The position numbers and the translations under genes are program-made. This document shows, piece by piece, positions 4,024 to 4,225 of a stretch of DNA of 64,000 bases. The DNA is from Octopus vulgaris. Taxonomy: Eukaryota. The stretch spans positions 70,556,001 to 70,620,000 of the forward strand of contig OX597821.1 of the NCBI GenBank assembly GCA_951406725.2, read 5' to 3'. The number at the start of each line of letters is the position of its first letter. Positions within the stretch are counted from its first letter, which is position 1. A model generated the notes under the pieces. It searched no databases and was not told the origin of the DNA. It saw only the letters and a program-made list of their open reading frames with translations.

Positions 4024-4222
4024 GAATCGCTAGCTTCTGCACGCATTTTTTTCTGTCCTTGTTTCTCTCCGTGTTTCTTTTCTGTGTATCTTTCTGTTGA
4101 AGAGCGTAGGCTCGAAACGTAAAAGGCTTGTTTTATTTATATTCCTGAGCGCCATACTAATACAATTGTTTGTTTGTACTCCACCTGCCTTCGTCTTTTG
4201 TTTATTTTCATAAAGCTTCCCG

Positions 4223-4225
<3 letters not shown>
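4024..4225 (+). mobile_element. Penelope-type hammerhead-bearing mini-element (family 2)
   Basis: Near-identical inverted copy at 6172-6380 and a related copy at 61700-61916; 3' end CTTCCCGTTA joins (TA)n. Confidence 0.75.
4089..4126 (+). ncRNA. Minimal type I hammerhead ribozyme motif, CUGUUGA core variant
   Basis: TCTTT-CTGTTGA-A-GAGC GTAG GCTC-GAAAC-GTA-AAAGG; stems I and II present, palindromic ACGT stem III. Confidence 0.6.

What the first reader, a model, noticed from the sequence alone, without database searches (positions are those of the whole stretch)
4024..4225. Ribozyme-carrying ~200-bp elements with a fixed non-canonical hammerhead core (CUGUYGA) that end in (TA)n
Seen: copies at 4089 (+), 6273 (-) and 61802 (-), plus diverged ones at 4334 and 5838, share TCTTT-CTGTYGA-A-GAGC(GTAG)GCTC-GAAAC-GTH-AAAGA. 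They have a 5-bp stem I, a 4-bp stem II, an extra A after A9 and a loopless palindromic stem III (ACGT). In the three best copies, variation falls mainly at the tolerant positions N7 (T/C) and H17 (A/C), while U replaces the conserved A6 in every copy. No ORF is present. Known: PLEs carry minimal hammerheads whose palindromic stem III needs dimerisation, and retrozymes are non-coding mobile RNAs with hammerheads. Inference: this is an abundant retrozyme-like or solo-terminal-repeat system with an unusual catalytic core, which canonical CUGANGA searches would miss.
Basis: partly seen in the sequence, partly recalled or inferred. Interest (0 to 1): 0.78.

Follow-up and report, generated by a model that had tools for sequence, protein, structure and literature searches.

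The report
Penelope-element hammerhead with fixed A6U core
These ~200-base repeats are the tail ends of a very abundant Penelope-type jumping gene, and their small hammerhead RNA motif has carried U instead of the normally invariant catalytic-core base A6 through every generation of the family, so it is likely a slowed but still selected self-cutting RNA and a natural test of what these motifs do.

Summary
The repeats are 3' pseudo-LTRs of an autonomous Neptune-type Penelope-like retrotransposon, not retrozymes. Full-length copies (pLTR, RT + GIY-YIG ORF, pLTR; 4.0-4.5 kb period) carry the same U6 hammerhead at both ends. The genome holds 17,610 exact CUGUNGA cores against 226 CUGANGA. In 100 copies picked by an anchor outside the motif, position 6 was U in 86 of 89 readable copies and A in none. 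Across eight subfamilies (73-94% alike) the 38-nt motif changes only at N7 (all four bases), N17 (A/U) and the outer stem-I pair, while 69 of 134 flank columns change. That is the tolerance pattern of a hammerhead under selection. Minimal fold, extra A9a and palindromic stem III are published PLE features. A6U was not found in the papers searched (Lunse 2017 unreadable). Cleavage is untested; copied RNAs were mostly uncut (1 of 100 5' ends at the cut site). Half of the copies start at one site upstream of the motif, likely a transcription start. The scan noted other PLE core variants on other DNA, not this one. New variant of a known kind.

The parts
3830..4225 (+). Copy 1: 5'-truncated 3' end (3' UTR + pLTR) of the Neptune-type PLE, youngest GUA subfamily
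   Evidence: 95% identity over 398 columns to the 3' end of full-length copy L068; 98.5-99% to 29 other genome copies
4008..4031 (+). Hot spot of 5' ends around the GCCATG landmark (A of ATG = 4019); putative transcription start, inferred
   Evidence: 49 of 100 unbiased copies start within -12..+12 of the landmark, 0 in -59..-31
4089..4126 (+). Minimal type I hammerhead: stem I 4089-4093/4122-4126, core CUGUUGA 4094-4100 (U6 = 4097), extra A 4101, stem II 4102-4105/4110-4113, GAAA 4114-4117, palindrome ACGU 4117-4120, H17 = 4121 (predicted cut after it)
   Evidence: sequence; conservation
4224..4258 (+). (TA)n target microsatellite, continuous with the element's own TATATAT
4266..4460 (+). Copy 4: old, decayed terminus (core CCTTTGA at 4338), oldest subfamily group; ends approximate
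5780..5964 (+). Copy 5: old, decayed terminus (core CTGTTGA at 5842, stem II broken); ends approximate
6174..6375 (-). Copy 2: ~200-bp terminus, core CTGTTGA (C3 at 6305), TA runs on both sides
   Evidence: 96.5% to copy 1
61703..61910 (-). Copy 3: ~210-bp terminus, core CTGTCGA (C3 at 61834), TA runs on both sides
   Evidence: 87.6% to copy 1
52008..52128 (-). Further fragment of the same terminus, 3' of the hammerhead only (range includes some TA run)
   Evidence: 79% to L106

Best explanation
The repeats are 3' pseudo-LTRs of an autonomous Neptune-type Penelope-like retrotransposon, and their minimal hammerhead has U6 fixed across eight subfamilies while likely still working as a slow, dimer-dependent self-cleaving RNA. 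Shown: the parent is pLTR - 5' UTR - one RT + GIY-YIG ORF - pLTR; copies share a fixed 3' end at (TA)n and differ at the 5' end; the motif is held constant between subfamilies except at hammerhead-tolerant positions. Inferred: the endonuclease nicks (TA)n and the templated UAUAUA primes reverse transcription at a pLTR 3' end. Copying back ~215 nt to a preferred RNA 5' end (probably an internal promoter start, TCA...GCCATG) gives the common ~210-bp solo copies; longer copying gives truncated or tandem full-length copies. Inferred: two motifs pair through ACGU to form a double hammerhead that occasionally cuts after GUA/GUU. U6 lowers the rate, by loss of A6 contacts and by a predicted U4-G16.2/G5-C15.2/U6-A15.1 off-hairpin, so that most templates stay uncut.
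For: PLE identity: 17 of 20 loci picked by RT sequence carry the U6 terminus. Of 39 loci picked by the ORF 5' end, 32 have it downstream and 16 on both sides, 3957-4544 bp apart. The 827-aa open frame of L102 has RVT_1 (E 7.5e-07) then GIY-YIG (E 0.0056), both just or well below Pfam's cut-off; RVT_1 passes in L105. Motifs ADKG, GVAMG, YIDD, linker CSRPRCRTC, FTC..IYCISC..YIGQT, RFAEH, RHF match the Neptune rows of Craig 2021 Fig. S2 by eye. U6 fixed: 17,610 U / 226 A / 497 C+G; 86 U, 2 C, 1 G, 0 A in 89 unbiased copies; the nearest relatives of an A6 query are U6 (2 of 30 A6 in each of two searches, query included). Selection pattern: 1 of 32 constrained motif columns against 69 of 134 flank columns vary between 8 subfamilies, Fisher p = 7e-08; N7 takes U, C, G, A; N17 takes A or U; with stem II left free no other stem II appears in 100 listed of 18,957. 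Stem I fourth pair is C-G here and G-C in the sister family. Natural A6C hammerheads still cleave slowly (PMC3088659) and better in Mn2+ (PMC7151607).
Against: No cleavage data. Only 1 of 100 5' ends lies exactly at the predicted cut (L397, ambiguous by TA microhomology), so most copied RNAs were uncut or re-ligated. No compensatory pair change inside the family; the evidence is conservation, and shorter invariant blocks also exist downstream of the motif. A6C cost over 10,000-fold in 0.3 mM Mg2+ in one ribozyme and minimal PLE hammerheads are already weak, so A6U may leave nothing. Nearest-neighbour energies put the double hammerhead 1.3-6.7 kcal/mol above two monomers for U6 copies, and it is never the dimer minimum, also not for A6 copies. 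The off-hairpin gain is 2.4 kcal/mol with U7 but only 0.2-1.2 with other N7. Subfamilies S3-S5 were mostly picked by patterns that fix stem II and GAAAC; two searches were run to remove this circularity.
Confidence: 0.55

Rival explanations
1. Same element, but the motif no longer cuts: it is kept as a fold (RT/endonuclease binding site, RNA dimerisation or template-jump signal, or a rod hairpin closed by U6-A15.1), with A6U as the change that switched catalysis off.
For: Templates were copied uncut. The monomer minimum-energy fold with U6 is a rod that hides the ACGU palindrome (P(6:15.1) 0.41-0.98 against 0 with A6). The sister family is also dominated by a core variant, U4C (73 of 100 listed), as if both lineages moved to lower activity. 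Naiad PLEs thrive without canonical hammerheads (PMC8557442).
Against: The two free positions are exactly the two that catalysis tolerates; G at 17 is never a subfamily state (2 of 89 copies). The rod would favour U7, yet N7 takes all four bases. C3, G5, G8 and G12 stay fixed.
Confidence: 0.3
2. U6 is a neutral or mildly harmful change that hitch-hiked in one master lineage; the motif is a relic conserved only by recent common descent.
For: Single master lineages do fix neutral changes; inside subfamilies the motif decays about as fast as the flank in the one group picked without motif bias (5.7% vs 4.7%), as expected after insertion.
Against: Between masters the motif is frozen while flanks diverge to 73-75% identity (p = 7e-08); five changes at N7 and none at the other core positions.
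Confidence: 0.1
3. An independent non-coding retrozyme or SINE-like ~200-bp element that replicates through its own ribozyme-processed circles.
For: 49 of 100 copies share nearly the same ~210-bp extent; a preprint argues animal retrozymes derive from pLTRs (10.64898/2026.07.22.740005).
Against: The same subfamilies hold short, intermediate and ORF-bearing copies; no uniform tandem arrays among fetched loci; copy ends lie ~100 nt either side of the cut site, not at it.
Confidence: 0.05

Closest known systems
Minimal hammerheads (min-HHRs) in pLTRs of metazoan Penelope-like elements (Cervera & de la Pena 2014, PMC4209133)
   Same: Type I, no loop III, palindromic 15.2/16.2 (ACGU), extra base between 9 and 10.1, G10.1-C11.1, short stem I, U-rich 5' side, one copy per pLTR, thousands of solo copies from 5'-truncated PLEs.
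   Different: All 56 families of their Fig. S3 have A6 (their descriptor fixed the core, so this is biased); their core variant is U3-A8. Here U6 is the family state and the motif is frozen over eight subfamilies, unlike the high variability they report.
Neptune-clade EN+ Penelope-like elements (Arkhipova 2006 as summarised in Craig et al. 2021, PMC8557442)
   Same: C-terminal GIY-YIG with CCHH, CX2-5CxxC linker, partial tandems forming pLTRs, microsatellite targeting.
   Different: Only the hammerhead core; this family was not matched to a named library entry (no repeat library on hand).
Natural A6C hammerhead of phage Bcep176 (Perreault 2011, PMC3088659; PMC7151607)
   Same: Pyrimidine at position 6 in a natural hammerhead; low but real activity, better in Mn2+.
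   Different: One phage motif with C and a full stem III, against a U fixed in about 18,000 eukaryotic copies with a dimer-type minimal fold.
Non-LTR retrozymes (PMC7761336; preprint 10.64898/2026.07.22.740005)
   Same: Short non-coding repeats with a type I hammerhead, related to pLTRs.
   Different: Retrozymes are tandem units with canonical cores and circular RNAs; these copies are dispersed, 5'-truncated ends of a coding element.

Membership tests
EN+ Penelope-like element | Single ORF with PLE-type RT followed by GIY-YIG endonuclease | tested here: met
   L102 827-aa open frame: RVT_1 then GIY-YIG, weak Pfam scores; motifs; 477 homologues at 42-58% among those listed. No copy seen is open from start to stop; longest frames 930, 844, 827, 826 aa
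EN+ Penelope-like element | Pseudo-LTRs from partial tandems, fixed 3' end, variable 5' truncation | tested here: met
   16 of 39 loci have the terminus on both sides of the ORF
Neptune clade | CX2-5CxxC linker plus CCHH endonuclease, long linker-to-GIY spacing, C-terminal EN | tested here: met
   CSRPRCRTC at 694, FTC..IYCISC at 725; compared by eye with Fig. S2 rows of PMC8557442, closer to Neptune than Nematis
Neptune clade | RT phylogeny with named Neptune references | not tested
   No named reference proteins were available as session sequences
Neptune clade | Insertion into (TA)n microsatellites | tested here: met
   91 of 100 copies end in a TA run; 50 of 82 have TATA on the 5' side
Minimal type I hammerhead of PLEs | Stems I and II, GAAA, palindromic 15-16, extra base after A9, UH cleavage triplet, location in pLTR | tested here: met
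Minimal type I hammerhead of PLEs | Core CUGANGA (A6) | tested here: not met
   U6 in 17,610 vs A6 in 226; 86 of 89 vs 0
Minimal type I hammerhead of PLEs | Compensatory base-pair changes | tested here: inconclusive
   None within the family; one C-G/G-C swap in stem I against the sister family, seen by eye
Minimal type I hammerhead of PLEs | Self-cleavage as a dimer | not testable with these tools
Non-LTR retrozyme | Uniform head-to-tail tandem units each with a hammerhead, no coding parent attached | tested here: not met
   7 close pairs among fetched loci are nested, mostly mixed-subfamily insertions; coding parent present

The most novel reading that the evidence does not exclude
Position 6 of the hammerhead is not invariant in retroelements: a U6 class exists that CUGANGA searches cannot see (this family, and two unrelated full minimal motifs in metagenome records L249 and L251). 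In this lineage U6 turned the ribozyme into a switchable or non-cutting RNA element that the retrotransposon still needs, which would show that PLE hammerheads are selected for something other than fast cleavage, such as RNA pairing for template jumps or protein-triggered cutting.
Probability: 0.3. Interest if true: 0.75.

Novelty: new variant of a known kind. Interest (0 to 1): 0.5.

Why it matters
The role of hammerheads in endonuclease-bearing PLEs is stated as unclear (PMC8557442; PMC4209133). This family is a natural experiment: a core change expected to cripple catalysis has been carried through eight successive subfamilies and about 18,000 exact copies while the rest of the motif stayed frozen. 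A one-week cleavage assay decides between a working new core variant (which widens search descriptors and the catalytic rules for position 6) and a non-catalytic job for the fold. The element itself is an ordinary Neptune-type PLE.

Tried and rejected
Rfam: no hammerhead match for the window or copy 1, nor for two A6 controls, so the miss says nothing about U6. An ancestral A6 subfamily: suggested by the tree (short alignment, weak support) and rejected; A6 copies are mostly post-insertion mutants, apart from L215 and L217, which have sister-family-like upstream sequence. Pile-up of 5' ends at the cut site: not found. One search was flawed by TA runs in the references and was redone. A splice-acceptor reason for U6 (CTGTAG in the A7 subfamily): dropped, because other subfamilies lack it. 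Dimer energies do not separate U6 from A6 convincingly. Viral contigs: tight pattern 0 hits; loose pattern chance-dominated, 80 of 120 loci listed and screened, 1 weak fit. No PDB match; NCBIfam only below cut-off. DNA around homologous proteins in other species and host RNA data could not be obtained, so the spread of U6 in related PLEs and any in vivo cleavage remain open. Lunse et al. 2017 could not be read. No complex or structure prediction was run; neither bears on the question.

Full report
1. Observation. The 30 best genome matches to 4024-4225 are 98.5-100% identical, end at the same base before (TA)n and differ at the 5' end. Exact-pattern counts: CTGTNGAAGAGCGTAGGCTCGAAAC 17,610; CTGAN 226; CTG[CG]N 497 (89 C and 11 G in the 100 listed, counted by eye); reversed controls 0. 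These exact counts are lower bounds on copy number.

2. The parent element. Two of the 30 loci run upstream into endonuclease or RT sequence. Of 20 loci picked by RT sequence alone, 17 carry the U6 terminus. Of 39 loci picked by the ORF 5' end (39 of 40 hits fetched around; the 40th is L068), 32 have the hammerhead downstream, 20 upstream, 16 on both sides, 3957-4544 bp apart, and all 52 hammerheads have U6. The layout is pLTR, TATATAT(T/C) (14 of 14 junctions), 5' UTR, ORF, pyrimidine-rich 3' UTR, pLTR. The L102 frame has RVT_1 and GIY-YIG matches, weak in Pfam, the linker CSRPRCRTC and the CCHH residues. By eye it resembles the Neptune rows of Craig et al. Fig. S2 more than Nematis or Poseidon; no tree was built. 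Homologues are 42-58% identical, the few named ones from molluscs, an echinoderm and a coral. No copy seen is intact end to end, but frames of 826-930 aa exist, L102 and L103 differ at 17 bases over 721 codons, and between-subfamily pairs show more synonymous change than the roughly 1:3 expected by neutrality (33:40 for L102/L097; within-subfamily pairs such as 9:20 do not).

3. U6 is the family state, and old. In 100 copies picked by a 23-nt anchor outside the motif (17,855 in the genome; the first 100 on C1), 89 had an ungapped motif: position 6 U 86, C 2, G 1, A 0; N7 U 34, A 19, C 18, G 18; N17 A 62, U 24, G 2, C 1; the outer stem-I base C 46, T 41; every other position at least 78 of 89, with losses mostly at CpG. 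The 11 dropped copies were truncated inside or below the motif (8) or gapped (3). Searches with two A6 copies as queries returned U6 relatives: A6 in 2 of 30 each, query included. So A6 copies are mostly later point mutants.

4. Selection on the motif. I grouped 115 copies by hand into eight subfamilies whose majority states are 73-94% identical. In the 38-nt motif only the outer stem-I base, N7 (U,U,C,G,A,C,U,U) and N17 (A/U) differ; 69 of 134 flank columns differ; for the 32 constrained columns p = 7e-08 (columns are not independent, so the p value is indicative). Three subfamilies came mostly from patterns that fix stem II, so I freed stem II: 18,957 matches, and the 100 listed show one stem-loop with scattered single changes. 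N7 and H17 being the tolerant positions is established knowledge (core consensus). There is no covariation within the family; a sister family in the same genome (12,432 matches) has G-C where this one has C-G in stem I, keeps A6 (98 of 100) and is mostly U4C (73 of 100, counted by eye).

5. Why ~200 bp. 49 of 100 5' ends fall in a 25-nt span around GCCATG (window 4019), 4 in -30..-13, none in -59..-31, 18 run past -60; one lies exactly at the predicted cut. The sister family piles up at the same distance from its core, often at TCAA(A)ATGTGACC (by eye). Drosophila Penelope has an internal promoter with its start in the pLTR (PMC2377424). I infer an RNA 5' end here (about 55%); an RT stall or TA microhomology at ATG/ATAG is the alternative. 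Upstream pLTRs of full-length copies start at scattered places, often further upstream, as in known partial tandems.

6. Mechanism. See Best explanation. Folding shows that U6 allows a rod, U4-G16.2, G5-C15.2, U6-A15.1, (U7-A14), which hides the palindrome, strongly only with U7. Dimer energies are not decisive. From memory, not from a call: A6 ends the U-turn (UNR) of the core, so a pyrimidine there should cost rate. In print: A6C is slow but active and Mn2+-rescued; minimal PLE hammerheads show no monomer and low dimer activity.

7. What is known. Every anatomical feature except U6 is in Cervera & de la Pena 2014 (seen: main text parts 1-2 of 4, supplement parts 1-2 of 3); its 56 listed families all have A6, under a descriptor that fixed the core. 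Other papers seen: Craig 2021 (passages, Introduction, supplement hits), Perreault 2011 (passages, one section), PMC7151607, PMC6765202, PMC7761336, PMC2377424, PMC11014351, PMC6466107 and PMC13282606 (passages; the last, an octopus repeat annotation, lists active Penelope families and has no occurrence of hammerhead or ribozyme), and the retrozyme preprint (part 1 of 5). Searches for prior report: A6U: one twister paper; CUGUUGA: one engineered-ribozyme paper among 20 listed of 176, not opened. None showed a natural A6U hammerhead. Lunse et al. 2017, the most likely place, was seen only as a title; it and repeat libraries may bear on novelty.

8. Elsewhere. The same core and stem II pattern gave 8 metagenome hits; 2 of 8 have complete minimal-hammerhead anatomy with U6 and unrelated flanks (L249, L251). 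They are single copies and may be mutants of A6 families. Earlier scan notes hold other PLE core variants in other genomes and nothing on this sequence or genome.

9. Verdict. A real, very abundant Neptune-type PLE terminus (confidence about 0.97) with a published kind of minimal hammerhead, but with a core substitution that appears unreported and is held under a hammerhead-shaped pattern of constraint. New variant of a known kind; interest 0.5.

Noticed in passing
window 2425-2640 (+), 41390-41600 (+), 63710-63910 (+): Three copies of a sister ~200-bp terminus with the same stem II but loop UCC and A6 cores (CCAACGA, CTGAAGA, CCGACGA). 12,432 pattern matches in the genome, 73 of 100 listed with the U4C core. 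Its coding parent was not looked for.
   Followed up: partly
hammerhead position N7 across subfamilies: N7 changed five times (U, C, G, A, C, U) while most flank columns show one or two states; unexplained, possibly tuning of activity or of the off-hairpin.
   Followed up: no
L249:287-338 (-) and L251:64-116 (+): Unrelated complete minimal hammerheads with U6 in metagenome records; L251 sits in an apparent ~100-bp tandem repeat, retrozyme-like.
   Followed up: partly
L215 (= L134) and L217, around position 1500-1560: Rare copies with sister-family-like upstream sequence, core CTGAAGA and this family's stem II and 3' part: an ancestral link or template-switch chimeras.
   Followed up: partly
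window 4225-4266; L065, L240, L465: Copies of different subfamilies stack head to tail by inserting into each other's TA runs, placing two hammerheads 180-250 bp apart on one strand; such pairs could form double hammerheads in read-through RNA.
   Followed up: no
L102:5738-6883 (+) and L068:539-1261 (-): Fragments of a different RT/GIY-YIG element directly follow the 3' pLTR in two full-length copies; not classified.
   Followed up: no
L083 around 1335 (+): One full-length copy begins 2 nt below the predicted cut site of its upstream pLTR; a single case, compatible with chance.
   Followed up: partly
window 35269-35424: A GC-rich 70-bp unit in 2.2 tandem copies, 94% matches.
   Followed up: no
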